Shown piece after piece: positions 7,866-62,797 of a DNA stretch of 64,000 nucleotides (its first letter is position 1; the number at the start of each line of letters is the position of its first letter). The notes beneath the pieces were generated by a model. It did not search any database. It worked only from the letters and a program-made list of their open reading frames with translations, and was not told the DNA's origin. The DNA lies in the IMG/VR virus record IMGVR_UViG_3300017963_000033, positions 15,320 to 79,319 of that record; one strand, written 5' to 3'. Position numbers and translations under genes: made by a program. This stretch comes from a virus.

Positions 7866-8131
7866 TGAACCACGTCCACCGTGTCTTTCCCTATCGCCAT
7901 GAACTCGGAGGCCAGGGCGTTCTCTGCACCACCGAGCAAGCCTTTGCTGAGTTTGTCCAGCAGGTCATGCTTACCCTCAAGGTGAGAGCCCATCACCATC
8001 CTGGCACTTTGATGGGCAAAGCCTATAGGGTCAAGATTCCCGGCACTGGAAACTATATCCTGGTCTGCACGTTTGAGACCAATGAGCAGCACTACAGCGC
8101 GGATAGGGTGTCGCTGTTTTGCATGAATTGA
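7865..8131 (+). CDS. hypothetical protein
   Basis: coupled to the upstream stop. Confidence 0.5.
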   Translation: MNHVHRVFPYRHELGGQGVLCTTEQAFAEFVQQVMLTLKVRAHHHPGTLMGKAYRVKIPGTGNYILVCTFETNEQHYSADRVSLFCMN

Positions 8132-8155
8132 TGAAAAGGATGAAGGTGACGACCA

Positions 8156-8401
8156 ATGGAGGTCTTGCCCAGTTATGACGCTGGCCAGAAAGGAGACCTC
8201 TTGCAAGCGCAGGAATTGCTGGCAGAGATGTCGAGAATGGCAACCCAGGTGAGTGCCCTCCTCGGGCGCAACCTGACCGTCAAGGGAGTCAACGGGACAA
8301 GCCAGGTAGAGATGGATGCTATCTACCAGGCCCATTGCCTGGTGCCCACCGGGGCCATCATGCGAACTAGCCAGTGGGTCAGGGAGGCGATTCGCCAATG
8401 A
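8156..8401 (+). CDS. hypothetical protein
   Basis: ORF coupled to ruvC. Confidence 0.5.
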   Translation: MEVLPSYDAGQKGDLLQAQELLAEMSRMATQVSALLGRNLTVKGVNGTSQVEMDAIYQAHCLVPTGAIMRTSQWVREAIRQ

Positions 8402-8895
8402 TCCTCCTTGCCCTGGACCCCAGCCTCTCGGCCATCGGCTGGTGCGTGATGGACACTGACTTGCGGGACCACGAGTGCATCACCGCCGCAGGGGTATTCA
8501 AGCCCAGCGGAGACTCCCTAGACCTGAAACTGACCTCGGCATCCAAGTGGTTGGACAGTCTTGCAGAGCAGTATCGCCCAGAAACGATAGCCCTGGAGGT
8601 CCCCGTGGTGGCCAAGAATATCCGAACCACCATCAAGCTGGCTCAATTGTCTGGAGCCCTACGCTTGACGGCGTTTCAGTGGACAGAGAGGACCATTGAG
8701 GTCTACCCCGGTGGCCGGCTGGCAGGGCTGGGGTTGCCTATCAAGACAAAAAGGGACGATGCCAAGCGCCTGGTCACAGGTCATGTCAACAGCATCTATG
8801 GCCTGGACCTTGACCCGAAAAGAGAGCACGACATCGCAGACGCGGTTGCCGTGGCCCATGCGGCGTGGTCGATGCTGCGGCAGGAATGGTTCTGA
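8398..8895 (+). CDS. ruvC: RuvC-like Holliday junction resolvase
   Basis: ILLALDPSL..IGW, IALE, HDIADAVAVA. Confidence 0.88.
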   Translation: MILLALDPSLSAIGWCVMDTDLRDHECITAAGVFKPSGDSLDLKLTSASKWLDSLAEQYRPETIALEVPVVAKNIRTTIKLAQLSGALRLTAFQWTERTIEVYPGGRLAGLGLPIKTKRDDAKRLVTGHVNSIYGLDLDPKREHDIADAVAVAHAAWSMLRQEWF

Positions 8896-8936
8896 TAATG
8901 GTGATATTCGGGAACAACGCAGGAGGTTAAGGTGAC

Positions 8937-9407
8937 GTGAGGGCACTGACACTATGGCAACCGTGGGCGACACTAGTCGCCATTGGTGCAAAGAGAATTG
9001 AAACACGATCATGGACTACAAGCTACCGAGGGCCGTTGGCGATCCATGCCGCCATGAGCACGAGGGGGCATGAGGCATATTGGCGCGAACCTTTCTTTGC
9101 TGAACTAAGGGTTTACCATTACAATAGGCCACACGAATTACCCCACGGTAGGATCATAGCAGTTTGCGAACTGACCGACATCCTTCCGACTGAGGATGTC
9201 CGAGGAATCATTGAGAACCGAGAATTGGCATTCGGTGACTATGGGGACGGACGTTATGCCTGGAGATTAGAAAATATCCATAGGTTGCCGATTGAAATGC
9301 CAGCGCGGGGATACCAAGGTCTGTGGCAGTGGGATTATTCTGGCGAGACAGCCGCAATTCAGAGGATGATTTATACATCCATGGACAACCAGAAAGGAGA
9401 CACATAA
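8937..9407 (+). CDS. ASCH domain protein
   Basis: ALTLWQPWATLVAIGAKRIETRSW..YRGPLAIHA..RGYQGLW. Confidence 0.9.
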   Translation: MRALTLWQPWATLVAIGAKRIETRSWTTSYRGPLAIHAAMSTRGHEAYWREPFFAELRVYHYNRPHELPHGRIIAVCELTDILPTEDVRGIIENRELAFGDYGDGRYAWRLENIHRLPIEMPARGYQGLWQWDYSGETAAIQRMIYTSMDNQKGDT

Positions 9408-10156
9408 TGCCGACAACGCTTTACAATGGAGACATCGAACTGGACTTTGACGCGAGGAAACACACCTACACCCTAAACGGGATCAAGGTGCCCAGTGTCA
9501 CAAAAATCACAGGAGTCCTTGACAAGCCCGCCCTCCAACATTGGGCGGTGAACACGACCCTGGACCATCTCAGGGACACCCTCCAGGCAGACACCCCATA
9601 CACGGCTGAACAGATCCAGGGCATCCTCGATGATGCCAAGGGAGCCAGGTGGCGGCAGTCCAGGGAGGCGCTGAACATCGGCGGGGATGCCCACGATTGG
9701 ATTGAACGCTACGTCAAGGCCAAACTCCTGAACATCTCAGGGGCCGAGATGCCCACCTATCCCCCTACCCTGGCAGCCGTCAAATCCTTTCTGGCATGGG
9801 AACAGGAGCACGAGGTCCACTGGGTTGCCTCCGAGCGCAAGGTCTATTCCAGGCTGCACAACTATTGCGGCACCCTCGATGCCCTGGCCGTGCTGAATGG
9901 GGTCCTGACCGTAATTGACTTCAAGACATCGTCTGGGATCTATCCAGAGATGTACTTGCAGGTCGTCGCCTACGCCCAGGCGGTAGGCGAGGAGGACGGC
10001 ATCACCATCGGGGACGTGGCTATCGTGCGCATCCCCAAGGATGGGGAGATGGTAGAGGTTGCCATGTCGGCTGACAGCGGTCAGACGATGATGCAACTGT
10101 TCACTACGTTCCTGCACTGCCTGGGGATCTACCAGTGGAAGGAGGCAACCAAATGA
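9407..10156 (+). CDS. PD-(D/E)XK exonuclease (Cas4/RecB-like)
   Basis: PSVTKI, G..H, GTLD, VIDFKTS, QVVAY. Confidence 0.85.
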   Translation: MPTTLYNGDIELDFDARKHTYTLNGIKVPSVTKITGVLDKPALQHWAVNTTLDHLRDTLQADTPYTAEQIQGILDDAKGARWRQSREALNIGGDAHDWIERYVKAKLLNISGAEMPTYPPTLAAVKSFLAWEQEHEVHWVASERKVYSRLHNYCGTLDALAVLNGVLTVIDFKTSSGIYPEMYLQVVAYAQAVGEEDGITIGDVAIVRIPKDGEMVEVAMSADSGQTMMQLFTTFLHCLGIYQWKEATK

Positions 10157-10320
10157 CTGTATCAAAGGTACTCATTATTTTATGTTCCTTTTTCCTAGCC
10201 TATACAGTCAAAATATTACTTTTTCCTAACGATTCTGAAAGATATAAACAGGCTGTTGGCTTGCTATCTATATCTACAATCTTGGCACTGGTTGCCTATT
10301 TTGTCCAAGTGGCGGTATGA
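10153..10320 (+). CDS. small 2-TM protein, low GC
   Basis: SD GGAGG; two hydrophobic segments. Confidence 0.55.
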   Translation: MTVSKVLIILCSFFLAYTVKILLFPNDSERYKQAVGLLSISTILALVAYFVQVAV

Positions 10321-10324
10321 TCAA

Positions 10325-10621
10325 ATGTCCACACTACTCGACATCGGCAGCACATTCGACTGGATCACGCCGCTCATAGCAATGATTCGGGATGTGGTAG
10401 ACGGGCCGTCTCACACCTTCATTATCCCCTATGATTGTGGATGGAGCGGAAGAGAGATTGTTCGATTACTCAAGAGACGGGGTGTTAGCAGTTGGGGACA
10501 CATGATTGTCAATCAGCAGTTTATGATCACAGTGCGACAACAGCAAGCACAATGGGCTTATCATATCCTGACACGGGCAGGGATTTCCGTAGAGTATAGA
10601 GTCACTGACAATACGGGATAG
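10325..10621 (+). CDS. hypothetical protein
   Basis: ORF inside the repeat-flanked insert. Confidence 0.55.
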   Translation: MSTLLDIGSTFDWITPLIAMIRDVVDGPSHTFIIPYDCGWSGREIVRLLKRRGVSSWGHMIVNQQFMITVRQQQAQWAYHILTRAGISVEYRVTDNTG

Positions 10622-10677
10622 ATTGATCCCCTGCATTGTCTGGGGATCTACTAGTGGAAGGAGGCAACTAGTAGACT

Positions 10678-11301
10678 ATGATTTTATTGACCCACCTATC
10701 GTCGCCAACTTATAGAATCCTAGCCACCATGCTACCAAATCATTTTGGTAGCCTCATTCAGCCCAGATCGTATACTCACAAAGCGGCGATTGTCGAGGGC
10801 TGCTGGCGGGCAGCGGACAATGACGCATATAATAAATTCAACGCCGAGAGATTCCAAACTATGTTGAAGGTTCACCGGCCCTATTTGTCCCGATGCCTCT
10901 TTGTAGTTGCCCCAGATTCAGTAGGGGATCACGAGGCAACGCTGGCATTCTGGCACAATTGGAAGCGGACAATAAGCTACGCAGGATACCCTGCCGCCTT
11001 CGTGGCACAGGATGGATGCACAATCAAAGACGTTCCCTGGTCCGAGGCAGATGCTCTTTTTATCGGAGGACATGATCAATTCAAAGACAGTGATGCCATG
11101 CCCATTATCCGAGAGGCCAAGCGGCGGGGGCTGTGGGTGCATGTTGGCCGGGTAAACGATAGCCCGCGCCGTCTGCGTTACTGCCTAGAATTGTCCGTCG
11201 ATTCAATCGACGGGACGGCATACGCGCAGAAACCAGACAAGATGCTGCGCTGGTATTTGAATCAGCGGGCGACATACGCAAGCCAAGGGAGGTTATTGTG
11301 A
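10678..11301 (+). CDS. TGT/DpdA-like TIM-barrel protein (copy 1)
   Basis: ADNDAY, VAPD, AQDG, FIGG, VHVGRVN, SIDGT; coupled to a VUT transporter. Confidence 0.6.
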   Translation: MILLTHLSSPTYRILATMLPNHFGSLIQPRSYTHKAAIVEGCWRAADNDAYNKFNAERFQTMLKVHRPYLSRCLFVVAPDSVGDHEATLAFWHNWKRTISYAGYPAAFVAQDGCTIKDVPWSEADALFIGGHDQFKDSDAMPIIREAKRRGLWVHVGRVNDSPRRLRYCLELSVDSIDGTAYAQKPDKMLRWYLNQRATYASQGRLL

Positions 11302-11807
11302 TCTATATAATTTTGTACCTCGTCGCCATCGTCTTTGCCAACCTGGCCGTTGCTTGGTTCGGGCCTGGCGTGTCGGTGGTCAATGCATTCCTATTCATCG
11401 GCCTGGACCTGACTGCCCGCGACAAACTGCATGATGCCTGGCACAAGCGCGGCCTCGTGTGGAAGATGACTGCACTGATCGCCACCGGCTCGCTGCTGTC
11501 CTGGGCGCTGAACCGCAACGCCGGGCCGGTTGCGTTGGCCTCGTTTGTCGCGTTCGCTGGGGCTGGCCTGGTGGATGCCATTGTCTACCACTTGCTGGGC
11601 GACCGGGCAAAGCTGCTCAAGATCAATGGCAGCAACGTGGCAAGCGCGGCGGTGGATAGCGTGATCTTCCCCGCGCTGGCGTTCGGATTCCCGCTGATGG
11701 TTGGCGTGATGCTGGGCCAGTTTGTCGCCAAGGTCGGCGGTGGCTTCCTCTGGTCGCTAGTGCTGAACTGGCGACCACAGCGCAAAGTCAAGGGGGAGGC
11801 GCAATAA
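11298..11807 (+). CDS. VUT/YhhQ-family queuosine-precursor transporter (copy 1)
   Basis: YLVAIVFAN, ARDKLHD, ALASFVAF, SNVASAAVDSVIF, GQFVAK. Confidence 0.82.
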   Translation: MIYIILYLVAIVFANLAVAWFGPGVSVVNAFLFIGLDLTARDKLHDAWHKRGLVWKMTALIATGSLLSWALNRNAGPVALASFVAFAGAGLVDAIVYHLLGDRAKLLKINGSNVASAAVDSVIFPALAFGFPLMVGVMLGQFVAKVGGGFLWSLVLNWRPQRKVKGEAQ

Positions 11808-11883: not shown

Positions 11884-11957
11884 TCATCACTTACAGGACT
11901 TGAACCTGTAACCAAACGTTCCTGATACGTTCGCGCTGCCAATTGCGCTAAAGTGTG
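11884..11957 (-). tRNA. atypical tRNA-like gene, anticodon CAG, short variable loop
   Basis: GCGC D-stem, AACGT/ACGTT anticodon stem, GGTTCAAGTCC T-arm; bulged acceptor stem, no CCA. Confidence 0.65.
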
Positions 11958-12032: not shown

Positions 12033-12061
12033 TTGACAGGCGCTGGAATCTGTGATATACT
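12033..12061 (+). promoter_or_regulatory. sigma70-type promoter of the membrane/FtsK operon
   Basis: TTGACA-17-TATACT; 32/34 identical to the promoter region 4718-4751. Confidence 0.8.
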
Positions 12062-12093
12062 GTCTGTGTAATGACATTGTGCGGAGGGAATAC

Positions 12094-12300
12094 ATGGGAG
12101 AGCAAGACACAATAGGAAAACAGGATGTGACGCTGACAATCAGGCTCGGGTTGCCGTTGCGGAAACAGGCATCAGCCAAGGCCATAAGGGATGGCTTTAG
12201 CCTGTCAGGGGTTGTGCGAACACTCCTACGCAGATACGTGGCGGGGGACATCCAGATCGAGACAACGGTCACGATGTCTGAGGAGAAGGATGATGGATAG
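12094..12300 (+). CDS. ribbon-helix-helix regulator
   Basis: TLTIRL..LRKQASAKA..SLSGVVRTLLRRYV. Confidence 0.7.
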   Translation: MGEQDTIGKQDVTLTIRLGLPLRKQASAKAIRDGFSLSGVVRTLLRRYVAGDIQIETTVTMSEEKDDG

Positions 12301-13000
12301 GCTCATCAACGCCGCCAGGAAATTCGATGCCGTGGACGCCATCGCCAAGTCAATCCCCTGGCTGTCGCCCATTCCCTCGGCCTACTTTGTCGCCCGCTCA
12401 GGAATGGCCCACCTGAGCCTGCCCCTGCCAGTGGCCATCGTCGTCGCTGCCATCATCGAAACTCTTGGACTCGCCACCGTCAACAGCGCCTTGGTTCTCT
12501 ACGACTGGAACGTCCAAAAGCGCAAGAACGACCCGAAAGCACCGACCTGGATTGCCCTGGCCCTGGCAGGGGTTTATATCATCGCCACCCTGTTGTTGGT
12601 GGTGTTCTTGGAAGTGTTTCCGTTCCTGGCCACATACGCGCCTGGCCTCTTTCCGTTCCTGGCCATCGTCGGCGCGGTCAACCTGGCAGTCCTATCTCAG
12701 CACAAGCACCGTGTCGCCTCGGTGGATGAAGCCAAGGCTGAGGCCAAGGCCGGGAGGGAGCGCAGGAAGCGGGAAAAGGAGAGGGAGGAAGCTGAGGCGG
12801 CATTGCCACCGACACAGGTAGCGCAAGTCTCTGACTGGCGGCTGCTGGTGAATGATGGAGCCCTCGATCACATGAACGGCGACCGCCTGGACGCCACCAC
12901 GGTTGCCGAGATTCTGGCCCAGAACGGTTATGCACAGCCCTCCATGCGGGCCATGCAGGGATGGGCCAAGAATTGGAACGATGAAAAGGAGACCAGCTGA
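12293..13000 (+). CDS. multi-TM protein with coiled coil and C-terminal HTH-like tail (Spd/DUF2637-like architecture)
   Basis: ~4 hydrophobic segments, charged helix, terminal helical domain. Confidence 0.55.
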   Translation: MDRLINAARKFDAVDAIAKSIPWLSPIPSAYFVARSGMAHLSLPLPVAIVVAAIIETLGLATVNSALVLYDWNVQKRKNDPKAPTWIALALAGVYIIATLLLVVFLEVFPFLATYAPGLFPFLAIVGAVNLAVLSQHKHRVASVDEAKAEAKAGRERRKREKEREEAEAALPPTQVAQVSDWRLLVNDGALDHMNGDRLDATTVAEILAQNGYAQPSMRAMQGWAKNWNDEKETS

Positions 13001-13043
13001 GAGGAGACACTACTGCGGAATTCAGGGATGGGAGACGAGGACA

Positions 13044-13223
13044 ATGGATGAAGATGGAACCGGGGAACTGACGTTTGACGAGGTTGACATGCAGGACATG
13101 ATTGACGATTGGTCGCGGATCTATGCCGAGGGTGTACGCGTTGACGGCTGGTATTATGACTGCCGGTCGGCCACCGTGATTATCCGGCTGATTATCGAAG
13201 AGGGAGAGGACACCGACGCATGA
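13044..13223 (+). CDS. small acidic hypothetical protein
   Basis: SD, ATGA overlap. Confidence 0.5.
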   Translation: MDEDGTGELTFDEVDMQDMIDDWSRIYAEGVRVDGWYYDCRSATVIIRLIIEEGEDTDA

Positions 13224-13531
13224 CACTAAGCTGGGGCCTGATGTGGTATGACGGAGATCCCAAGAAACCATTCATGGACAAGGTGGGCCAGGCTGCCCGG
13301 CGCTATCGGGAGAAATATGGGCACTGGCCCAACACCTGCTACGTCCATCCCAACATGGTAGAAACAGACCCGGTGCTGACCCCGGTTGATGGGAGGGGGT
13401 CGGGCACAACCATTCGGGTCACCACAGCGCCCAACATCCTGCTCCATCATTTCTGGCTGGGGGAGGCACAGGATGCCAGTGGGCAACCGGCTGCCCAACT
13501 GTCACTCCATGGGTTGCGCCATGAAGTTTGA
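13220..13531 (+). CDS. conserved hypothetical protein of a type I recall from Chloroflexota
   Basis: GLMWYD.D..KV.QAARRY..KYG..PN.CYVHP. Confidence 0.6.
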   Translation: MTLSWGLMWYDGDPKKPFMDKVGQAARRYREKYGHWPNTCYVHPNMVETDPVLTPVDGRGSGTTIRVTTAPNILLHHFWLGEAQDASGQPAAQLSLHGLRHEV

Positions 13532-13655
13532 GATTGATCGCAAGCGCCGGCTAAAATGGACCGTCCAGGATCTACTCTGGACCAATACACCTTGGTTCCT
13601 GCTCTTGGTGGTAGGAACCATCGTGGCGGTAGTCATTTCAGGAAAGGCAGAATGA
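13521..13655 (+). CDS. small single-TM protein
   Basis: C-terminal hydrophobic helix; fills the operon gap. Confidence 0.45.
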   Translation: MKFEIDRKRRLKWTVQDLLWTNTPWFLLLVVGTIVAVVISGKAE

Positions 13656-14326
13656 GCAAGAGGGTCCAGTCCACAAGCCAGAAAGATACAGACCGGCTCA
13701 TCGTGGAGCATGTCCAGGGACCAAAGATCCGGGGGGTGGATCTCGAGATGGGGGACAAGACCGACAGGACGGTGGGAATTGTCCTGGCCATTGTCTTTGC
13801 CCTGGCTGCCATCTTTGCTTGCGGGGCCTTGTCTGGCACGTCCACAAGCAGCCCAAGCAGAAGTAGCAAGCCCTGGGAGGGATGGGCCTATGTGCTCCCT
13901 GTCGTGGGCATCCTCCTCGCCATCCTGGCGCTGATGGTCCTTGTCTATCTCGGGGCCAGGATGTATCTGTCCCTGGCGCGTCTTTATGCGGAAGTCAACG
14001 CCCAGGACATTCAAGCCCGCGTGGTGCCGGCAGATGCCAACGGGAGCAAGGGGATGTTTGTCACCGGGGATAAGCGCGGAGCCGTAAACCTAGACGCACT
14101 GCCAGGGGCCACAGTCACCGGCCTTCACAAGGCAGATAAGGTTGTGGTGCCCGAGCCGGCAACCGAAGCCGAACAGCAGGCAGCCAACCAGGACAAGATG
14201 ATCCGTCTTGCTACTGCTGCGCGGGCCATCCCCCCGCTTGGAGCGCCGAAACCGCCCCCTCAGATTCGGGAAGTGTCACCCGACTCGGAGGAGGTCGGAT
14301 GGCTGGTGGATGGGAGAGAAGAGTGA
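13652..14326 (+). CDS. 2-TM membrane protein
   Basis: two TM helices, Pro-rich tail. Confidence 0.65.
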   Translation: MSKRVQSTSQKDTDRLIVEHVQGPKIRGVDLEMGDKTDRTVGIVLAIVFALAAIFACGALSGTSTSSPSRSSKPWEGWAYVLPVVGILLAILALMVLVYLGARMYLSLARLYAEVNAQDIQARVVPADANGSKGMFVTGDKRGAVNLDALPGATVTGLHKADKVVVPEPATEAEQQAANQDKMIRLATAARAIPPLGAPKPPPQIREVSPDSEEVGWLVDGREE

Positions 14327-14952
14327 GACCATACATTGACTTTGTGTCAGGTGAAAACACAGACAAGATCCCTGACTGGTTCACTGCCCAGCGTGAGGAG
14401 ATTGATTGCCCATTCTGTGGACGAAAAGGATATGCCTGGAAACAGGAATATGCTCCTGCTACCTGGAACCAATGTCATCACTCTATCATTGCAGATGAGA
14501 ATGGAATGATGGATGCAGATCATTGCAAGATGGGTTATCTTGTATGGCCTTTGTTCTCAGGAGAAGAGGAACCTCACATTGAGGACTGGGGACTTGGACA
14601 ACGATTCATTAAGAATATTCCCAGCCGAGACAGGTTGCCAGAGCACTTGTGGCAGTACCTGAACGGCGAGGGGAAGCGTAAAGGACTTGCCACGTGCTTG
14701 ATCTGTGACGATTCATGGTTCTGGAAACTGCCGCATCACATCAAACCACTGAAAGGATATGCGGGACCGTTTCCCTATTGTGAGGAATGCAACCAGCAAT
14801 TCGGTCGATTCAGGCACATTCAGGCCATGCTAAGATTGTGGCGGGAATGGCTTGCCTGTTGTTATCGGGAAAGCCTGCGCAGCGTCGAGTATCGGCGTGT
14901 AACACGCACAACGCTGAATGCAGTCCTGGGCATTATGGCGCATGGAGGATAG
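14323..14952 (+). CDS. Cys-rich hypothetical protein
   Basis: GTGA overlap, CxxC motifs. Confidence 0.55.
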   Translation: MRPYIDFVSGENTDKIPDWFTAQREEIDCPFCGRKGYAWKQEYAPATWNQCHHSIIADENGMMDADHCKMGYLVWPLFSGEEEPHIEDWGLGQRFIKNIPSRDRLPEHLWQYLNGEGKRKGLATCLICDDSWFWKLPHHIKPLKGYAGPFPYCEECNQQFGRFRHIQAMLRLWREWLACCYRESLRSVEYRRVTRTTLNAVLGIMAHGG

Positions 14953-16314
14953 GTGAATCCACGGCAGGTTGAACAGCGGGTGACTGATGCCCTCACACAA
15001 CTGAAACTGTGCCATCGAGAACGTGGCGTCGTCCGGGGCCAGGTGTCCTTTACGGACATCTGGCACTGTGAGGATGTCCATGGGCGAGGCCCCGTGGTGG
15101 GCCTCGTGGTTGATGTTGCCAACCTGCCGCTGGGGGTAGACGCGGGAACCCTGACCAGTATCAAGACCCTGCACCACCTGGAAACGGTTCTGGAATGCAC
15201 CATCAAGTGCCAGAACACCAAAGGTATTACCTATGCCGTGTTCCTAGATGAGCCACCCGATTCCAACATCCCAGACGCAGTGCCCTTCACCATGGAGGAC
15301 CGCCCCGAGGGAGACTACATGATTCCCCTGGGCGTCGGTCCTACCGGGCCGGTGTGGAAGAGCCTGACCGAACTTGACTCCATCCTGGTGGCCGGCACCC
15401 GCCGCATGGGCAAGTCCACCTGGGTCAACTCGGTCCTCGCCGCGCTGCTCAAGCACCACACCCCCGAGCAACTAAAGCTGGCCATCATCGACCCCAAGCG
15501 GGTGGATTTTGGGGCCTGGGCCGCAGCTCCGCACTTGTTGTGGGAGATTGCCAGAGAGGCCCATGAGGCGGCCTTGTTATTGGAACAGATGTTCAAAGAG
15601 ATGAACATGCGTTCGGCGGCCATCATCGCTGCCAAGTGCGCAAACATTGACGACTACAACAAGATTGCGGAGCAGCCCATGCCCCGCATCCTAATCGTCT
15701 GCGACGAGGCTGCATACCTCCAGGAAGTGGGGGAGGATGCCATCCAGATGCTGTCCCAGATCCTCAGCCTGGGCGGGGCCTTTGGCATCCATGTGATTGT
15801 TTCGACCCAGCGCCCGGATGCCCAAAGCATTTCCAGCCTGCTCAAGGCCAATCTGCCGGTACGCATCAGCTTTTGGTTCCAGGCCCCTATCAACTATCGC
15901 ATTGCCCTGGAGCCACCGCAGGGGGCGCGGGTGCCGCGCATCCCCTATCACAAGGGACGATTCGTCCTATCCATCGACCATGCCTACCAGGTGCTCCAGG
16001 GCTATCGCCTGGACAACGAGGCCCTTTGGGCGCTGGCCGAGGAGGTCCAGGCCGGGCGGTCGCTGCCCATTCCGATGCGCCACCTGGAGATGATGCGCTG
16101 GGCGCGAGATGAAAACGAGGGTTATCTGTCCATTGCTGCTGTGGACAATTTCCTGGGAGAACGGCGGGAAGGAGAACCCTCCCGCAAGAAACTGTGCAAG
16201 GACTATGAGCGGGCGGGATGGCTGGAGAAGGACCCCCAGAAGAACAACGCTCGGCGGCTGACCATCCGGGCGGTTGGAATTCTTGAGAGGTTCGAGGATC
16301 TATGGCAACAATGA
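14953..16314 (+). CDS. FtsK/SpoIIIE-family ATPase with C-terminal wHTH-like domain
   Basis: AGTRRMGKS, IIDPKRVDF, IVCDEAA, STQRPD, LKANL. Confidence 0.9.
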   Translation: MNPRQVEQRVTDALTQLKLCHRERGVVRGQVSFTDIWHCEDVHGRGPVVGLVVDVANLPLGVDAGTLTSIKTLHHLETVLECTIKCQNTKGITYAVFLDEPPDSNIPDAVPFTMEDRPEGDYMIPLGVGPTGPVWKSLTELDSILVAGTRRMGKSTWVNSVLAALLKHHTPEQLKLAIIDPKRVDFGAWAAAPHLLWEIAREAHEAALLLEQMFKEMNMRSAAIIAAKCANIDDYNKIAEQPMPRILIVCDEAAYLQEVGEDAIQMLSQILSLGGAFGIHVIVSTQRPDAQSISSLLKANLPVRISFWFQAPINYRIALEPPQGARVPRIPYHKGRFVLSIDHAYQVLQGYRLDNEALWALAEEVQAGRSLPIPMRHLEMMRWARDENEGYLSIAAVDNFLGERREGEPSRKKLCKDYERAGWLEKDPQKNNARRLTIRAVGILERFEDLWQQ

Positions 16315-16508
16315 TAGAAAAAGTGATGTCCTTCATAGGTGCCATAGCAATCGGTGTGGCAATCATGCTGAATGTCACGGCATTGATAGCCTCTATCAAA
16401 GGGAATATGGAGACCATCAATATCATCGGTGCTGCACTTTTTGCTTTGGCGGTCGGCCTGTCTTTTCTGTATATCGCAAAGGAAACACTGGATAGAATTC
16501 TGTCTTGA
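16302..16508 (+). CDS. small 2-TM protein
   Basis: two hydrophobic helices. Confidence 0.55.
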   Translation: MATMIEKVMSFIGAIAIGVAIMLNVTALIASIKGNMETINIIGAALFALAVGLSFLYIAKETLDRILS

Positions 16509-16519
16509 AAGGAGACATA

Positions 16520-17440
16520 ATGGCTGAACTGTGGATGGAAACAGACGTTGAGAAAGCGAGAACCTATGCTGCCCCACCGAAGGTGCGAATGTATGCTGCA
16601 CAAGAGTTTGCAATTGCCTCACCAGTCGAGGCAACATCCTTGATGCACAAACTGGAACAATCGCCAAGCAAGCCCCTGCTGGCATCAGCATTCACAGCAG
16701 GGGAAATCAGCATCATCCTCCAGCAAGGAAGATTTGTTCTTGCCGAAAAGTTGGGGGTTCGCGGGCTGACGCTGGATGATCTGGCATTGTTGTATGTCGT
16801 GGACAGTTTCGCCCTACTTCTCTGGCAGGTAGGCCGCACAGAACCCTTGCAACAAAGCATCAACGCTGGTTCAATGCCATCTGTGTCGCAGTCCATTTCC
16901 ACTGCTCGCCAAGCGGCTGCCGCCGCTGCAATTGCTGCTGCCAGCCAAAGACAGATTGATTTTATGCCCATGCAGATGCCACGGGCACATAGGGTTCGTG
17001 CTCCGCGCTTGCGCCGGCAACGAGCACAAATTCCCCACAGTGATCCAGTCTTGGTGCTAGACCTACGACCTGGCAGACTCGATCTTGATGCTTACTACAA
17101 GGCCCAACGGAAATGGTGGGGAGCCTTCACCAATGGTGGAAACAAGGGTACTAGAATGGGTCTTAGGGATGCCAATAGGAAACTGGAAAGATTGGTAGAG
17201 ACAACCAATAGTACCCCAGGCATCAGGCCACGGGCACGATTACTCCTGAATCAGGAATTTGCCAGGGTACGCGCCGATCTGGCAAGTATGCCGCAAATAG
17301 GAAGTTTCCAACGCCAACAAATAGATGATTTCACCATCGACAGGGTTTTCAGGGCTATATTCTATCTCATCTTTTTCGGTGCCATATTGGCAGCAACTTG
17401 CGCAATGCTGTATGGCATCTTTCACTTGATCATGATGTGA
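16520..17440 (+). CDS. hypothetical protein with C-terminal TM
   Basis: SD AAAGGAGA; terminal hydrophobic helix. Confidence 0.65.
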   Translation: MAELWMETDVEKARTYAAPPKVRMYAAQEFAIASPVEATSLMHKLEQSPSKPLLASAFTAGEISIILQQGRFVLAEKLGVRGLTLDDLALLYVVDSFALLLWQVGRTEPLQQSINAGSMPSVSQSISTARQAAAAAAIAAASQRQIDFMPMQMPRAHRVRAPRLRRQRAQIPHSDPVLVLDLRPGRLDLDAYYKAQRKWWGAFTNGGNKGTRMGLRDANRKLERLVETTNSTPGIRPRARLLLNQEFARVRADLASMPQIGSFQRQQIDDFTIDRVFRAIFYLIFFGAILAATCAMLYGIFHLIMM

Positions 17441-18074
17441 GGACAGGCACTGGGCCTGACCAGAAAGGAGACTCTGAATGAGTGAGCGTTTAGGAGGATG
17501 CGCGGAGGCGTTGCGCGTCGTGGCCTTGATTGTGTTGGTAGTTGGCCTTGTCGTCCTCATCGGGCTGGGCATCATCGTTTATGGAGATGCCCATGAGAAG
17601 CGGAGTGCCGCCATCGACACTCAGGCCAGGGAGAAAACAGCCCAGACGGAGATTGCCTGGAACGGGATAACCGAACGCACCGCCACCGAAGAGGAAGGCA
17701 AGACTAAGCGCACTGCCATCGAAGAGGAAGGCAAGACTGAGCGCCAGTTGAACCAGTTGAACCATGAGAAATTTCTACTGATCTGGGCAGAACAATCCTG
17801 GGAACAACGGCTTGTCATGTTGGCTGAAATCACCAGAGGTATGACCTCAGAGGAGCGCCAAGCACTCCTGCACATGATGAACGCCTATGAGGCTGGAAAC
17901 ACTGCTGAGGATCGCAATTGGACCCAAATCTTCGCCTGGGCATGGGCAATCTTCGGTGCCATCCTGGTGTTTTGGTTCCTGGGACGCCCATTGCTCAAGC
18001 GGGTCTTTATCTCTATGCCATGGGGATGGTAGTGAGCAGTGGTGGACAGGCACTGGGCCTGACCAGAAAGGAGA
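17441..18074 (+). repeat. perfect 31-bp direct repeat (17441-17471 and 18044-18074) flanking one gene
   Basis: GGACAGGCACTGGGCCTGACCAGAAAGGAGA twice. Confidence 0.9.
17478..18032 (+). CDS. 2-TM coiled-coil membrane protein
   Basis: TM at both ends; internal 11-aa duplication (RTAxEEEGKTx). Confidence 0.65.
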   Translation: MSERLGGCAEALRVVALIVLVVGLVVLIGLGIIVYGDAHEKRSAAIDTQAREKTAQTEIAWNGITERTATEEEGKTKRTAIEEEGKTERQLNQLNHEKFLLIWAEQSWEQRLVMLAEITRGMTSEERQALLHMMNAYEAGNTAEDRNWTQIFAWAWAIFGAILVFWFLGRPLLKRVFISMPWGW

Positions 18075-18128
18075 TTGCAAATCCTTTAATCAAACTGATT
18101 GCCTAGCTGACAAACAAACAAAGTGGTG

Positions 18129-18171
18129 AAGAGAGACCGGGGCTACCATCATGGTAGCCCCGGTCTTTTTT
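18129..18171 (+). terminator. intrinsic terminator at the convergence of the two arms (probably bidirectional)
   Basis: 16-bp inverted repeat AGACCGGGGCTACCAT/ATGGTAGCCCCGGTCT followed by a T run. Confidence 0.88.
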
Positions 18172-18175
18172 GCGT

Positions 18176-18796
18176 TTAGGGGAGAATGGTCCTGCTCACC
18201 ATGTACCTCGGGCGCACGTCCCGATAGATGTAGGAACGCCCCCGGTTCACAGCGTCAATCTCCTGAATCTGTCCCTGACTGCCTGTTGTGCCATTGTTGC
18301 GCAGGATGATGAGCACCAGCGGCAACTCGGACAGATAAGGCCCCCAGGTGTCCATGACCTCGGGCCAGACCTCATCCTCAGCCTCTGCCGCCGTCGCATA
18401 CTCGTTGGTATCGTAATAGAATGCAAGCCCCACATCGCTGTATGCCCAGGCCACCCCATCTATGACCAGGCAGATTCCGCGATAGTAATAGGCATTGGTA
18501 TACGATGGTGCCCCATCATCGAGGCCACCTGGCCCAAACTCTGCATCTCCAGGGTCTACAATCTTGGCACGTCCAAAGCCTGGACCATCCGGGCTTTCAT
18601 ACATAATGCCGCCACGGGCATGGACCAGCGTGGATGGTGGACAGCTCGGATACACGGCAAACCAGTAGTGCATGTTATCATATCTGGCCCTGGCCCTCTG
18701 CCGTGCCTGTTCCAATAGGATCTCCTTAAAGTTGTTCAGGATGTCCATATTGGAGGAAATATGCCTTGGCCTAGTATCCTTGCGATAGAATGTCAT
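18176..18796 (-). CDS. putative tail/baseplate protein
   Basis: last gene of the tail operon, coupled start. Confidence 0.55.
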   Translation of the reverse strand: MTFYRKDTRPRHISSNMDILNNFKEILLEQARQRARARYDNMHYWFAVYPSCPPSTLVHARGGIMYESPDGPGFGRAKIVDPGDAEFGPGGLDDGAPSYTNAYYYRGICLVIDGVAWAYSDVGLAFYYDTNEYATAAEAEDEVWPEVMDTWGPYLSELPLVLIILRNNGTTGSQGQIQEIDAVNRGRSYIYRDVRPRYMVSRTILP

Positions 18797-19941
18797 ACTG
18801 TCTCACTTCTGGTCCACAATTCTGCCTTGCCTTCGATGACTTCCTCATTCTGCCCGTCGATGGCCCCGGCGACCTCGGTGATCCTCATGTCATATTCATT
18901 GCCCCACAACACCAGGGTCACCAGATCCCCCAAGGCCCAATCTCTCCCATACAAACACCACTCTGTCTGGACCGGCTTGAATGTGACAGTGGTGATGGCC
19001 CCCAGGTCCACCAGGTACTGCTCCAGGATGTCAGGAACACTGTCGATGCTTGCTGTGTCTGAGACATCCACATAATCCTCACGGCGACGGTAGGGACTCT
19101 CTGCGATGGCATCACTGTTTTCGGCCTCGACAATGTCCTGCTCTCCTCCCCCTCCCTCCCAGCCGCCATAGAGATAGGTCACTTCCTGAGTCCGACTTAC
19201 CCCGACGAATGGTTCCAGCACGTTCTCAAATTCAAGGCTAAAGATGGTGGGATTGGCGGCATATCCTTTCCTGCGGTCGGTGCCATAGTAGGGACAGTAG
19301 GTGCGGAACTCAAAGCCATCACTGACGCGCACCACCCGAAAGTCGGTTTGCCATGTTTCCCCGGCCAGTGTCTTTACAGCCGTTAGGAGCCTATCATAGC
19401 GCCCCTCGTAGCAGCCATACGTTCCCTCGCCTCGGTTGCCCTCCACAGAAAAGTTGCTGAACTGCCTTTCCAGCGCAGCCCCGCCCCCCATGGACTCTGA
19501 AACCATGGCCTTCATCACATCATCGGCAGGTCCAAACATCCACCAGATGCCATAGTCCCGCCACTGCTGCGAGGCGCTGGGCACAGGAGTCAGGACGGGT
19601 TGGTCTATCAACCACTCAGGACTCATGCCGGTGCTGGCCCAGTAATGCTCGTCAAACTGCCCCGTCATCAATTCTTCTGGATTGTGGTGAAACCCATAGA
19701 ATTCCTCATAGTAGCCTGAACCATAGTCCCGCTCTACGAGGATGCCATAATCCACCCGAAAGAGGTCTTTGGTATCTGTCTCGGCTACGAATTCGGCCCG
19801 GTAGACGGTGGCATCGTTCAGCTTGTGATGCCAGGCGATGGATAGGAAGTCGGATTCGTGAACCCCACTGGCATGGAGGAGGGCCAGCTTGGAGCCGGTC
19901 CAATCGCACAGCCACACCTGGTACTGGGCAAACTCAGGCAT
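18793..19941 (-). CDS. ReqiPepy6 Gp37-like tail hub protein
   Basis: YGTDRR..IFSLEFEN, RRREDYVD, YGRDWALGDLVT. Confidence 0.75.
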   Translation of the reverse strand: MPEFAQYQVWLCDWTGSKLALLHASGVHESDFLSIAWHHKLNDATVYRAEFVAETDTKDLFRVDYGILVERDYGSGYYEEFYGFHHNPEELMTGQFDEHYWASTGMSPEWLIDQPVLTPVPSASQQWRDYGIWWMFGPADDVMKAMVSESMGGGAALERQFSNFSVEGNRGEGTYGCYEGRYDRLLTAVKTLAGETWQTDFRVVRVSDGFEFRTYCPYYGTDRRKGYAANPTIFSLEFENVLEPFVGVSRTQEVTYLYGGWEGGGGEQDIVEAENSDAIAESPYRRREDYVDVSDTASIDSVPDILEQYLVDLGAITTVTFKPVQTEWCLYGRDWALGDLVTLVLWGNEYDMRITEVAGAIDGQNEEVIEGKAELWTRSETV

Positions 19942-61992: not shown

Positions 61993-62361
61993 GGGCGAGT
62001 TCCCAACCCCCGCCCCACCCCACCGACTACAGAACACGGTGATGGGGAGTGGGAGACGGTGGGAAGGGGTGGGGGAGGGAGAAACGTGGGTAGACATAAT
62101 GTAGCGAGTTTTCACCCCTCCTCGGGTCTGGAGGGTGCCGCCACATGCCCGCCCGCCCGAATATTTTTTCGCGTTGGGTTGTCTGGCCGATGCCATAGAA
62201 CTATAAAGAAACAGAATGATACCACGTTATATCATGCCATGCCCTATGCTCAGACACCCCTACCATAGCACTAGCACAACATTATATAGCAACTTGACAT
62301 AGTTATACTTGTGCTAATACCTACTAGCACAAGTATACTACTATACATAAAGCTATGGGCA

Positions 62362-62797
62362 GCCGATGCCCCGATGCGATGCGATGCGATGCTGCCCGAT
62401 GCGGGGAGAGTGCGATACCCTATGTAGCTATAACTTTTGGTTATAGCTACCATTCCATTTGGTTATACTTTCCGATGCCTGCCCGATGCCCTACCCTACC
62501 TTGCCCGATGCCCTATTCTATGATGCCCGATGCCTGACTTATGGACGCCTGCCCGATGCCCGATCTATTCTACCCTACCCTACCATATGCCCTACCCCAA
62601 AGCAGATCCACGTCTAGGCCACCGATGCCCGATGCCCTATTCTATGGAGCTCTTGACCAGTTGCCCGATGCCTGGCCGCCGATGCCTGGCCGCCGATGCG
62701 ATGCCCGATGCCCGATGCCCGATGCCAGTATACATGGTACTGGATAGGCCATAGTCTAGCCAGGATGCCTGCCCGATGCGATGCCCGATGCCATGCC
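62362..62797 (+). repeat. polarised (GCC)CGATGC repeat array
   Basis: about 23 CGATGC by hand count, all on one strand, interspersed with CCCTA repeats. Confidence 0.9.

What the first reader, a model, noticed from the sequence alone, without database searches (positions are those of the whole stretch)
12033..18171. Self-contained membrane-protein + FtsK operon resembling a TraB/Spd DNA-spread module in a phage
Seen: one promoter, an RHH gene, a multi-TM/coiled-coil/HTH protein, five more membrane proteins, an FtsK ATPase with a wHTH-like tail but no TM anchor, and one terminator. Known: Streptomyces plasmids and AICEs move dsDNA using FtsK-like TraB plus Spd proteins. Inference: a phage of a filamentous Chloroflexota host could pass its genome cell to cell without lysis. 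Caveat: the usual Arg-finger region reads LGGAFGI, so ATPase activity is not assured.
Basis: inference. Interest (0 to 1): 0.78.

Follow-up and report, generated by a model that had tools for sequence, protein, structure and literature searches.

The report
Phage-borne split FtsK DNA-pump operon
A complete 79-kb tailed phage carries a real 11-gene operon for a membrane-tethered FtsK-type DNA pump whose parts recur in small integrative elements of Chloroflexota, so it looks like a conjugation-style DNA-transfer module outside the actinomycetes, though its activity and role are unproven.

Summary

The operon is composite.
- g6 (2TM)-FtsK-2TM-TM/coiled-coil/TM is syntenic in two related phage contigs.
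- g6 is probably homologous to the N-terminal membrane domain of FtsK-like proteins in other elements, so the pump looks split.
- g2 belongs to a large conserved family (4TM plus, usually, a wHTH). An FtsK-like gene follows it in 6 of 24 assessable loci, including integrase-bearing elements; one lies in a Chloroflexota genome.
- In both relatives an array of short 7-8-bp repeats sits at the 3' end of the FtsK gene, as Streptomyces clt sites do.

It is not a TraB or Spd family member. The TraB model scores 22.9 bits against a cut-off of 800, and g2 shows no profile similarity to DUF2637. The canonical arginine finger is Gly in this copy.

Verdict: it works like a Tra/Spd module but is not a member. 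Lysis-free spread remains inference. Interest 0.66.

The parts
12033..12061 (+). Sigma-70-type promoter of the operon (TTGACA-17-TATACT with TG)
   Evidence: 11 of 12 matches, the best site in the region. A mirror promoter at 12023-11995 (-) faces the tRNA gene.
12094..12300 (+). g1, 68-aa RHH-like regulator
   Evidence: SD GGAGGG lies 8-11 nt upstream. phrog_6506 Arc-like E 0.0056; RelB/DinJ E 0.014. Homologue upstream of a g2-like gene in L073. The assignment is weak.
12293..13000 (+). g2, 235 aa: multi-TM N-domain, basic coiled-coil linker and a short divergent C-terminal domain. Member of a large conserved family whose other members end in a wHTH.
   Evidence: at least 175 clusters, 50-70% identical in the N-domain; TrmB/IclR/HTH_24 C-termini in 10-12 of 16 sampled. 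An FtsK-like gene lies downstream in 11 loci.
13044..13223 (+). g3, 59-aa acidic soluble protein
   Evidence: No family and no hit in any fetched locus.
13220..13531 (+). g4, 103-aa soluble protein
   Evidence: No family.
13473..13655 (+). g5, small single-TM protein (start at 13473 or 13521)
13652..14326 (+). g6, 224 aa, 2 TM plus cytoplasmic tail. Proposed membrane anchor of the FtsK motor.
   Evidence: Lies just upstream of the FtsK gene in L001 and L002. Family of 27 stand-alone representatives. Profile against the N-terminal 254 aa of the L067 FtsK: hhalign 96.4%, E 1.4e-9, 155 columns; tblastn hit inside the L062 FtsK ORF, E 9e-8.
14299..14952 (+). g7, 217-aa Cys-rich soluble protein (zinc-ribbon/HNH-like lead only)
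   Evidence: ESM Atlas 0.91-0.92 with low shared-feature counts. Absent from the relatives.
14953..16314 (+). g8, 453-aa FtsK/SpoIIIE-family ATPase: alpha/beta N-domain, RecA-type motor (Walker A GTRRMGKST, Walker B ILIVCDEA), wHTH tail 375-452. No TM. Gly at the arginine-finger position.
   Evidence: Clade of 8 with 99% SH-aLRT support.
16302..16508 (+). g9, 68-aa 2-TM protein
   Evidence: A 2-TM gene holds the same place in L001 and L002. No sequence similarity shown.
16520..17440 (+). g10, 306-aa protein with a C-terminal TM anchor; orphan
   Evidence: Only itself found in 5.8 billion proteins.
17478..18032 (+). g11, 184 aa, TM/coiled-coil/TM, with a 33-bp tandem duplication
   Evidence: Same architecture at the same place in L001, L002 and L143, but BLASTP E 0.29.
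18136..18171 (.). Bidirectional intrinsic terminator between the operon and the convergent tail genes
   Evidence: -36.8 kcal/mol, z -7.8.
62187..62791 (+). Candidate cis site: 19 CCGATGC copies, all on one strand, non-coding, at the divergence of the two genome arms. The link to g8 is unproven; it could equally be an origin or operator array.
10256..10621 (+). Small soluble protein whose homologues sit directly upstream of the g6-like gene in L001 and L002. Here it is displaced by the dpdA-like/Vut_1 genes, the tRNA and g1-g5.
   Evidence: 46% identity to L002, 34% to L001.

Best explanation
The operon encodes a split, membrane-tethered FtsK/SpoIIIE-type double-stranded-DNA translocon of the kind used by conjugative integrative elements, captured by a temperate siphovirus.

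Proposed mechanism:
1. g6 (2 TM) holds the TM-less motor g8 at the cytoplasmic membrane.
2. The winged-helix tail of g8 recognises clustered short direct repeats on the element's own DNA. In two relatives these lie at the 3' end of the FtsK gene. In this phage the candidate is the one-stranded CCGATGC array at 62187-62791.
3. The motor pumps duplex DNA through or along a membrane assembly formed with g2 and the small membrane proteins g5, g9, g10 and g11.
4. g1 (RHH) regulates the operon.

Most likely role: moving the phage or prophage genome across a membrane or septum into a neighbouring cell or compartment, that is, Tra/Spd-like transfer.

Shown:
- the operon and its anatomy;
- FtsK family membership;
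- the predicted wHTH;
- synteny with two related phages;
- recurrent g2-FtsK linkage;
- the repeat arrays in the relatives.

Inferred:
- the g6-g8 contact;
- DNA-site recognition;
- translocation activity;
- the biological role.

My odds are about 0.7 for 'membrane-anchored FtsK-type translocon acting on the element's own DNA' and about 0.35-0.4 for intercellular transfer as its role.
For: FtsK identity:
- Pfam PF01580 at 73.7 bits, phrog_1358 E 2.7e-55, PDB FtsK E 2e-25.
- Foldseek top hits are FtsK motors.
- wHTH tail.

Synteny:
- g6-like 2TM, FtsK, 2TM and TM/coiled-coil/TM occur in that order in L001 and L002, at 42% and 38% FtsK identity.
- The module sits at the same genome position, converging on homologous tail genes.

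Split or fused form:
- g6 profile against the N-terminus of the 560-aa FtsK of L067: 96.4%, E 1.4e-9.

g2-FtsK linkage:
- 6 of 24 loci with at least 2.5 kb downstream, and 11 loci in all, have an FtsK-like gene just downstream on the same strand. Only one other FtsK/HerA-like hit occurs elsewhere in those loci.
- The linked FtsKs fall in at least two separate clades.

Element type:
- L067 has an HTH_17 excisionase-type gene, g2-like, TM::FtsK, RHH, HU, a RepB_primase/PriCT_1/DUF927 protein and a large serine recombinase.
- L143, in a Chloroflexota genome, has g2-like, TM::FtsK, a TM/coiled-coil protein and a serine recombinase, then host genes.
- L067 meets the Int + Rep + FtsK criterion used to call AICEs (PMC3218068), reading its RepB-type primase as the Rep component; L143 shows Int + FtsK only.

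clt-like arrays:
- L001 has 10 GGTTTGCG copies in 150 bp spanning the FtsK stop codon, against 0.64 expected.
- L002 has 6 GTTTGNG copies in 88 bp at the stop codon.
- Compare the pWTY27 clt, which covers 16 bp within traA plus the adjacent 159 bp, and TraB wHTH recognition of 8-bp repeats (PMC3583192; PMC4447253).
Against: - The canonical arginine finger (PaFtsK R620) is Gly275 in g8. No Arg or Lys lies between Walker B and the GIH motif. It is also lost in P0003 to P0006, so this copy may hydrolyse ATP poorly or need a partner.
- The window has no repeat array beside g8. The distant CCGATGC array sits where an origin or operator region would be. A similar direct-plus-inverted array in L067 lies beside the primase gene, not the FtsK gene.
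- No homology to TraB or to Spd/DUF2637.
- Distant clade members sit beside ParM/RHH (L001) or ParA, a primase and ParB (L003), which fits segregation as well.
- The g6-FtsK fusion similarity is remote. A library-wide profile search returned only stand-alone proteins.
- The L067-type elements could be phage satellites rather than conjugative elements.
Confidence: 0.45

Rival explanations
1. Segregation or maintenance device. The membrane- or septum-tethered FtsK motor clears or positions replicated prophage or episome DNA at closing septa, possibly with the phage's Xer-like tyrosine recombinase, as chromosomal FtsK and SpoIIIE do. DNA does not pass to another cell.
For: - In tree 1 the g8 clade is sister to chromosomal and phage FtsK (SH-aLRT 90).
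- NCBIfam and clade-HMM scores are highest for FtsK proper.
- A ParM-like gene plus RHH lies upstream in L001. ParA, a primase and ParB lie downstream in L003.
- G000 has an Xer-like recombinase, read by eye from its N-terminus, at genome 9086-10060. Its homologue lies just beyond the FtsK module in G001.
- Reviews of Bacillus phages suggest DNA translocation or sporulation roles for phage FtsK homologues (PMC4113786).
Against: - The deep tree position is unstable.
- The integrative elements carrying the g2-FtsK pair show no partition genes in the stretches held.
- Clustered repeats at the gene's 3' end resemble clt rather than genome-wide polar KOPS or SRS motifs; few copies lie outside the arrays.
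Confidence: 0.22
2. Exclusion or conflict module. A catalytically weakened FtsK-like protein with membrane partners blocks or hijacks incoming DNA, whether superinfecting phage or the related conjugative elements. Alternatively it is a defence system.
For: - The arginine finger is lost in 6 of the 8 clade members whose sequences were inspected.
- PADLOC matches the motor to the SspH C-terminus (90 bits) and to mad8.
- PHROGs file phage FtsK-like proteins under 'moron, auxiliary metabolic gene and host takeover'.
- The operon sits at the end of the early arm, among accessory genes.
Against: - The PADLOC hits cover only the shared ATPase domain, and none of the other nine operon proteins scanned (g5 was not scanned) gave a convincing defence-family match; the only other hit was g6 to PycTM, E 0.0045, 14.9 bits over its TM region.
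- Walker A, Walker B and the TQRP motif are intact.
- The wHTH and the adjacent repeat arrays in relatives point to action on the element's own DNA.
Confidence: 0.1
3. Type VII-like protein secretion: the FtsK-type ATPase with small membrane proteins exports the small proteins g3 and g4.
For: - EssC and EccC models score 60-72 bits, and PDB EccC gives E 2e-21.
- Several small membrane proteins and two small soluble proteins lie in the operon.
Against: - g8 has a single ATPase domain, not three, and no TM or FHA domain.
- It has a DNA-binding-type wHTH tail.
- g8 does not group with the EccC-like domains in either tree.
- No WXG100-type family was detected for g3 or g4.
Confidence: 0.03
4. Decaying cargo. 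The module was acquired from an integrative element and is no longer functional in this phage.
For: - Gly replaces the arginine finger.
- g2 has lost its wHTH.
- There is no adjacent repeat array.
- Orphan genes (g3-g5, g7, g10) are interspersed.
- The small conserved upstream gene is displaced by about 3 kb.
Against: - All 11 frames are open, with good SD sites and coupled junctions, under a near-consensus promoter and a strong terminator.
- The finger is also Gly in several intact clade members, which suggests tolerated loss rather than decay.
Confidence: 0.1

Closest known systems
Streptomyces TraB/clt with Spd proteins (pSVH1, pIJ101, pWTY27; AICEs such as pSAM2)
   Same: - An FtsK-like hexameric-type motor with a C-terminal wHTH.
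- Clustered 7-9-bp direct repeats, some inverted, at or overlapping the 3' end of the translocase gene; seen here in relatives L001 and L002.
- An operon of small, diverse membrane proteins with overlapping stop and start codons.
- A small repressor at the head of the operon.
- Related cassettes sit in elements with an integrase and a replication gene.
(PMC4447253, PMC3583192, PMC3218068)
   Different: - Not homologous at family level: TraB model 22.9 bits against a cut-off of 800, and g2 has no profile similarity to DUF2637/SpdB2-like proteins.
- The motor has no TM segment of its own; the anchor is a separate gene.
- The arginine finger is absent in this copy.
- No repeat array lies next to the gene in this phage.
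- The carrier is a tailed phage, probably outside Actinomycetota.
Streptomyces plasmid-phages pZL12/phiZL12 and pFP4
   Same: These elements make phage particles and can also conjugate as episomes using a tra gene (as cited in PMC4170104 and PMC3583192). They are a precedent for a phage genome that carries an FtsK-type transfer function.
   Different: - They are actinomycete elements with bona fide Tra genes and ParAB.
- The primary papers (Zhong 2010; Chen 2012) were not held, so details rest on citing papers.
- No sequence relationship was tested.
Chromosomal FtsK/SpoIIIE
   Same: - Best sequence and structure matches.
- Alpha/beta motor plus a DNA-recognising winged helix.
- Membrane tethering.
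   Different: - The membrane anchor is split off.
- No PF09397 gamma-domain match.
- R620-equivalent is Gly.
- g8 forms a separate clade of eight with 99% support.
- It is encoded by a phage.
FtsK/SpoIIIE-like proteins of cultured phages (Bacillus herelleviruses and gamma-like phages, Mycobacterium phage WXIN and others)
   Same: They are phage-borne FtsK-like genes. 354 INPHARED records match g8, and their functions are unknown.
   Different: - All are under 36% identical and cover under 70% of g8.
- The three contexts inspected (WXIN, BtCS33, Eldridge) show no annotated membrane-gene operon.
- WXIN and Eldridge group with chromosomal FtsK, not with g8.

Membership tests
FtsK/SpoIIIE family (PF01580) | Pfam domain above the gathering score | tested here: met
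   73.7 bits against a cut-off of 24, E 1.9e-20.
FtsK/SpoIIIE family (PF01580) | Walker A, Walker B and the TQRP motif | tested here: met
   GTRRMGKST, ILIVCDEA and STQRP are present. K154, D251, E252, Q286, R287 and P288 are invariant in the clade.
FtsK/SpoIIIE family (PF01580) | Trans-acting arginine finger (PaFtsK R620) | tested here: not met
   R620 aligns with Gly275 (PMC7321959). Arg is kept in P0002 and the L002 protein only.
FtsK/SpoIIIE family (PF01580) | N-terminal membrane anchor | tested here: not met
   g8 has no hydrophobic segment. The anchor is probably supplied in trans by g6.
FtsK/SpoIIIE family (PF01580) | C-terminal DNA-recognising winged helix | tested here: inconclusive
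   wHTH topology is predicted at 375-452, with a MarR-type match at E 0.006. There is no PF09397 hit, and DNA binding was not tested.
Streptomyces plasmid TraB (NCBIfam NF041214) | Family HMM above the cut-off | tested here: not met
   22.9 bits against a cut-off of 800. Chromosomal FtsKs score 52-60 bits on the same model. True TraBs score about 10 bits on the g8-clade HMM.
Streptomyces plasmid TraB (NCBIfam NF041214) | Cognate clt: clustered 7-9-bp repeats at or next to the gene | tested here: inconclusive
   Met in relatives L001 and L002. Not met beside g8. Only a distant array exists, at 62187-62791.
Streptomyces plasmid TraB (NCBIfam NF041214) | Transfers double-stranded DNA between cells | not testable with these tools
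   Needs mating assays.
Spd proteins (SpdB2-like, DUF2637 / SpdB_N + HTH_SpdB_C) | Sequence or profile similarity | tested here: not met
   hhalign of the g2 family against DUF2637 proteins taken from TraB-bearing genomes, two of them next to TraB genes: probability 0.08%, and the reversed control scored higher. The ESM Atlas lead reached only 0.81. PF27079 is not in the local library.
Spd proteins (SpdB2-like, DUF2637 / SpdB_N + HTH_SpdB_C) | Small membrane proteins in a coupled operon next to the translocase gene; a TM domain plus HTH | tested here: met
   This is a match of architecture only.
Type VII secretion ATPase (EccC/EssC) | Three tandem FtsK-like ATPase domains with N-terminal TM segments | tested here: not met
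   One domain and no TM. g8 does not group with EccC-like domains.
AICE-type integrative element (applies to related loci L067 and L143, not to the phage) | Int + Rep + FtsK-domain Tra within one element (PMC3218068) | tested here: met
   L067 has a serine recombinase, a RepB_primase/PriCT_1/DUF927 protein and PF01580; the primase matches RepB_primase rather than the PF09250 Prim-Pol profile used by the paper. L143 has a serine recombinase and PF01580 beside host genes. Transfer is untested, and a satellite is not excluded.
Defence system SspFGH / mad | The other system components are present | tested here: not met
   Only the ATPase domain of g8 matches. None of the other nine scanned operon proteins (g5 was not scanned) matches an Ssp or mad component; the only other PADLOC hit was g6 to PycTM, E 0.0045.

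The most novel reading that the evidence does not exclude
A temperate tailed phage, probably of a Chloroflexota host, carries a working conjugation-type FtsK translocon. It shares this translocon with a so far undescribed class of AICE-like integrative elements outside the actinomycetes. It uses it to pass its double-stranded genome directly between adjacent cells of a filament without making virions or lysing the donor.
Probability: 0.2. Interest if true: 0.9.

Novelty: new variant of a known kind. Interest (0 to 1): 0.66.

Why it matters
FtsK/TraB-type transfer of double-stranded DNA is regarded as a speciality of mycelial actinomycetes. The 2011 survey found AICEs only in Actinomycetales (PMC3218068).

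Three things here extend that picture:
- a recurrent cassette of a conserved multi-TM/wHTH protein plus a membrane-anchored FtsK-like motor;
- its presence in integrase-bearing elements, one of them in a Chloroflexota genome;
- its presence in a tailed phage, with clt-like repeat arrays in two relatives.

Together these make testable the question of whether this conjugation mode has arisen, or spread, in another phylum. It would also blur the line between phage and conjugative element, as the Streptomyces plasmid-phages do. It would give a function to part of the large set of unexplained phage FtsK-like genes. The split anchor-and-motor arrangement and the tolerated loss of the arginine finger are of interest for how these motors work.

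Tried and rejected

Searches that gave nothing:
- The viral-contig scan with g8 alone found nothing; an alignment was needed.
- g10 has no homologue.
- g3, g4, g5, g7, g9 and g10 gave no tblastn hit in any fetched locus.
- No RNA holder is listed for the stretch. The DNA is held by one sediment and one seawater metagenome run, either of which may be the source.
- PF27079 is not in the local Pfam. PMC2897331, on pZL12, is not held.

Similarities I suspected that did not hold:
- My by-eye likeness between g6 and the N-terminus of the L055 FtsK: hhalign 0.4%, BLASTP E 3.2.
- g11 against the TM/coiled-coil/TM protein of L002: E 0.29. The match is architecture only.
- g2 against DUF2637/SpdB2-like proteins: no similarity.
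- The g6 profile across 1.84 billion representatives returned only stand-alone proteins of about 141-255 aa. The fusion link to L062/L067 therefore rests on pairwise and profile comparison alone.

Unresolved:
- Deep placement of the g8 clade. It is sister to chromosomal FtsK in tree 1 and falls in a 96%-supported group of mobile-element FtsK-likes in tree 2. Both are quick trees with SH-aLRT only, and the TraB outgroup is a long branch.
- Host phylum. The g2 family occurs in 2 of 401 Chloroflexota and 0 of 401 Actinomycetota genomes, too few to be significant.

Considered and set aside:
- PADLOC SspH and mad8 hits cover the ATPase domain only.
- A genome-wide polar KOPS-like motif: few copies of either repeat lie outside the arrays.

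Full report
**Setting**

The window is bases 15320-79319 of a single 79,319-bp virus record. The record has a 123-bp terminal direct repeat, so the genome is complete.

It is a siphovirus-like phage:
- Sipho_Gp37-type tail protein at 18793-19941(-);
- Gp3-like recombination directionality factor at 31-1290;
- HTH_36 and IstB-like replication genes at 6125-7865;
- a gene at genome 9086-10060, outside the window, whose N-terminus looks like an Xer-type tyrosine recombinase by eye; it was not scanned against Pfam.

The finding lies at the end of the rightward 'early' arm and converges on the tail genes.

**Observation**

Promoter and terminator:
- The promoter TTGACA-17-TATACT with TG at 12033-12061 is the best in the region.
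- At 18136-18171 a 20-bp stem with a U-run folds at -36.8 kcal/mol, z -7.8.

Between them lie 11 open frames with SD sites. Most junctions overlap or abut.

Hydropathy shows:
- TM segments in g2, g5, g6, g9, g10 and g11;
- none in g1, g3, g4, g7 or g8.

g8 identity and form:
- PF01580 at 73.7 bits; phrog_1358 E 2.7e-55; PDB FtsK E 2e-25.
- The AlphaFold model (pLDDT 65.8) finds FtsK motors first.
- Its last 80 residues form helix-helix-helix-hairpin-helix.
- A profile of this tail hits a MarR wHTH at E 0.006.

It omitted three soluble genes (g3, g4, g7).

**Arginine finger**

The activity-controlling finger of P. aeruginosa FtsK is R620 (PMC7321959). In the HMMER alignment to 2iuu, chain position 375 aligns with Gly275 of g8. 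I confirmed the numbering offset of 245 because chain position 412 is the Lys that the paper numbers K657.

No basic residue lies between Walker B and the GIH motif in g8. Within the clade the position is Arg in P0002 and in the L002 protein, and Gly in the window, P0003, P0004, P0005 and P0006. Walker A, Walker B and TQRP are intact. The caveat stands: this copy may be slow, partner-dependent or inactive.

**Relatives and synteny**

g8 has few close relatives: P0002 to P0006, then a drop to E about 1e-22.

Two IMG/VR contigs carry members:
- L001, from a 75,219-bp genome rated 100% complete, at 42% identity;
- L002, at 38% identity.

Both show the same gene order:
1. a small soluble protein, homologous to window 10256-10621;
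2. a g6-like 2-TM protein;
3. FtsK;
4. a 2-TM protein;
5. a TM/coiled-coil/TM protein.

In the L001 genome the module again converges on tail genes homologous to those of the window. Only g6 and g8 are detectably homologous. The downstream membrane proteins match by architecture only.

More distant clade members lie elsewhere:
- L003, a provirus: 2TM, FtsK, ParA, a primase and ParB.
- L004, an Anaerolineales MAG contig, with an excisionase-type HTH and a replication initiator, both read by eye from the translations.

**The anchor is a split-off domain**

A g6-family profile aligns with the N-terminal 254 residues of the 560-aa FtsK-like protein of L067. The alignment gives 96.4% probability, E 1.4e-9 and 155 columns. 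It covers both TM segments and the shared PEPWAGW loop. tblastn places g6 inside the same ORF as the motor in L062, E 9e-8.

This is a fission/fusion pair and argues that g6 and g8 work as one membrane-anchored translocase.

Caveat: a search of 1.84 billion representatives with the g6 profile returned 27 stand-alone proteins and no fused form. The link is therefore remote, and TM-rich profiles can flatter.

**g2 is the widespread partner**

The family:
- g2 belongs to at least 175 clusters that are 50-70% identical in the membrane domain. Most end in a TrmB/IclR/HTH_24-type wHTH.
- The window's copy has a shorter, divergent tail.

Linkage to FtsK-like genes, across 88 fetched loci:
- An FtsK-like motor lies within 4 kb downstream on the same strand in 11 loci.
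- That is 6 of the 24 loci with at least 2.5 kb of downstream sequence.
- Only one other FtsK/HerA-like hit occurs anywhere else in those loci.
- The linked motors fall into at least two separate clades and keep the arginine finger.

So the pairing is functional rather than merely inherited, yet it is not obligatory.

**What those elements are**

L067 carries:
- an HTH_17 excisionase-type gene;
- a zinc-ribbon gene;
- a g2-like gene;
- TM::FtsK;
- a CopG-type RHH;
- an HU-like gene;
- a RepB_primase/PriCT_1/DUF927 protein of 985 aa;
- a large serine recombinase.

No virion genes appear in the 20 kb held.

L143 carries a g2-like gene, TM::FtsK, a TM/coiled-coil protein and a large serine recombinase, followed by housekeeping genes. 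It comes from genome G222, drawn from the phylum of an Anaerolineales MAG, that is, Chloroflexota. G222 holds five g2-family copies, three of them with an FtsK directly downstream.

L067 meets the operational AICE definition of Int + Rep + FtsK-domain Tra (PMC3218068), if its RepB-type primase is read as the Rep component. A satellite-like nature is not excluded.

**Repeat arrays**

L001:
- All 10 GGTTTGCG copies in 12.2 kb lie within 11262-11411.
- Eight are direct and two inverted.
- Four lie inside the last 75 nt of the FtsK gene and six in the spacer after it.
- 0.64 copies are expected by chance.

L002:
- Six GTTTGNG copies lie within 88 bp starting at the FtsK stop codon, all on one strand.

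This mirrors Streptomyces clt loci:
- pWTY27 clt covers 16 bp within traA plus the adjacent 159 bp, with 7-bp direct and inverted repeats.
- pJV1 clt has nine 9-bp repeats.
- TraB reads 8-bp repeats with helix alpha-3 of its wHTH (PMC3583192; PMC4447253).

The window has no such array beside g8. Its only non-coding array is 19 CCGATGC copies, all on the + strand, at 62187-62791, where the two arms diverge. That could be the cognate site, and the window's wHTH does differ from those of L001 and L002. It could equally be an origin or operator region. In L067 a comparable array of seven direct and three inverted GTGTAAC copies sits next to the primase gene.

**Family membership**

NCBIfam scores for g8:

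| Model | Bits | Cut-off |
|---|---|---|
| FtsK | 79 | 1566 |
| EssC | 72 | 778.4 |
| EccCb | 70 | 346.55 |
| TraB | 22.9 | 800 |

Other tests:
- Chromosomal FtsKs score 52-60 bits on the TraB model.
- Bona fide TraBs, found at 989-998 bits in two actinomycete genomes, score about 10 bits on the g8-clade motor HMM.
- In both trees g8 sits in a clade of eight with 99% support. That clade is separate from EccC-like, TcpA-like, TraB and chromosomal FtsK groups. Its deep position changes with sampling.
- DUF2637 proteins occur in the TraB-bearing actinomycete genomes, two of them beside TraB genes, as expected for SpdB2-like genes. The g2 family shows no profile similarity to them.

The module therefore works like Tra/Spd by architecture and context, but it is not a member of those families.

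**Interpretation**

Most likely this is a sequence-guided, membrane-anchored dsDNA translocon of conjugative-element type carried by a phage. I give about 0.7 to that general mechanism.

Odds for its role:

| Role | Odds |
|---|---|
| Intercellular transfer or spread | 0.35-0.4 |
| Septal segregation or maintenance | about 0.2 |
| Exclusion or defence | about 0.1 |
| Decay | about 0.1 |
| T7SS-like secretion | about 0.03 |

Evidence bearing on the choice:
- Transfer is favoured by the cassette's presence in integrase-bearing elements that show no other transfer or partition genes in the stretches held, and by the clt-like arrays.
- Segregation is favoured by the par genes next to distant clade members.

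The concept has a precedent in the Streptomyces plasmid-phages pZL12 and pFP4 (cited in PMC4170104, PMC3583192 and PMC4487206).

Evidence for a filamentous Chloroflexota host is thin:
- one NCBI protein named Chloroflexota;
- the G222 and L004 contexts;
- 2 of 401 Chloroflexota against 0 of 401 Actinomycetota genomes.

The same stretch and the CCCGATG array were noted before by first readers of this scan on this genome. No follow-up existed.

Noticed in passing
window 62187-62791: Non-coding array of 19 CCGATGC copies (about 23 CGATGC), all on the + strand. It includes interspersed CCCTACC repeats and several inverted repeats, and lies at the divergence of the two genome arms. It could be an origin, an operator or a clt-like site.
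   Followed up: partly
window 11885-11957 (-) and 12023-11995 (-): tRNA-Leu(CAG) (ARAGORN) with its own near-consensus promoter, placed back to back with the operon promoter.
   Followed up: no
The pair is inserted between the small conserved gene at 10256-10621 and the FtsK module, which are adjacent in the relatives.
   Followed up: partly
L067 8603-19914 and L062 (metagenome contigs of 333 kb and 99 kb): About 11 kb of L067 holds an excisionase-type HTH, a g2-like gene, TM::FtsK, RHH, HU, a primase-helicase and a large serine recombinase. An array of 7 direct and 3 inverted GTGTAAC copies lies at 17964-18120. It looks like an AICE-like element outside the actinomycetes, and a type III-like restriction gene pair (by eye) lies upstream.
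   Followed up: partly
L143 (genome G222, Chloroflexota) 6403-11043: A compact cassette of a g2-like gene, TM::FtsK, a TM/coiled-coil protein and a serine recombinase lies next to housekeeping genes. The genome has five g2-family copies.
   Followed up: partly
L001 6670-8421: An actin-like ParM-type gene (by eye, N-terminal MNIGIDIGYSHTK) is flanked by two RHH genes about 1.5 kb upstream of the g6/FtsK pair. This suggests that the related phage has a plasmid-like partition system.
   Followed up: no
L003 2152-3487: The FtsK-clade gene of this provirus is read in two overlapping frames, so it may be frameshifted. It ends in a 9-bp tandem repeat that encodes DLE repeats. ParA, a DnaG-type primase-helicase and ParB follow.
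   Followed up: no
window 14299-14952 (g7): Cys-rich protein with three CxxC-type motifs. The ESM Atlas points to HNH or zinc-ribbon clusters (0.91-0.92, with low shared-feature counts). If real, this would be a nuclease next to the translocase gene.
   Followed up: partly
window 17676-17744 (inside g11): A 33-bp tandem duplication (2.1 copies, 91% match) encodes a repeated TEEEGKTKR-type segment in the coiled-coil part. A similar EEEKTKRE segment occurs in the L002 counterpart.
   Followed up: no
L055 6264-7151 and 10184-10711: In this 57.6-kb viral contig a second, HerA/DUF87-like ATPase lies 2 kb upstream of the g2-like gene. A DUF6884 gene (E 4.5e-48) lies between the g2-like gene and the TM-bearing FtsK gene.
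   Followed up: no
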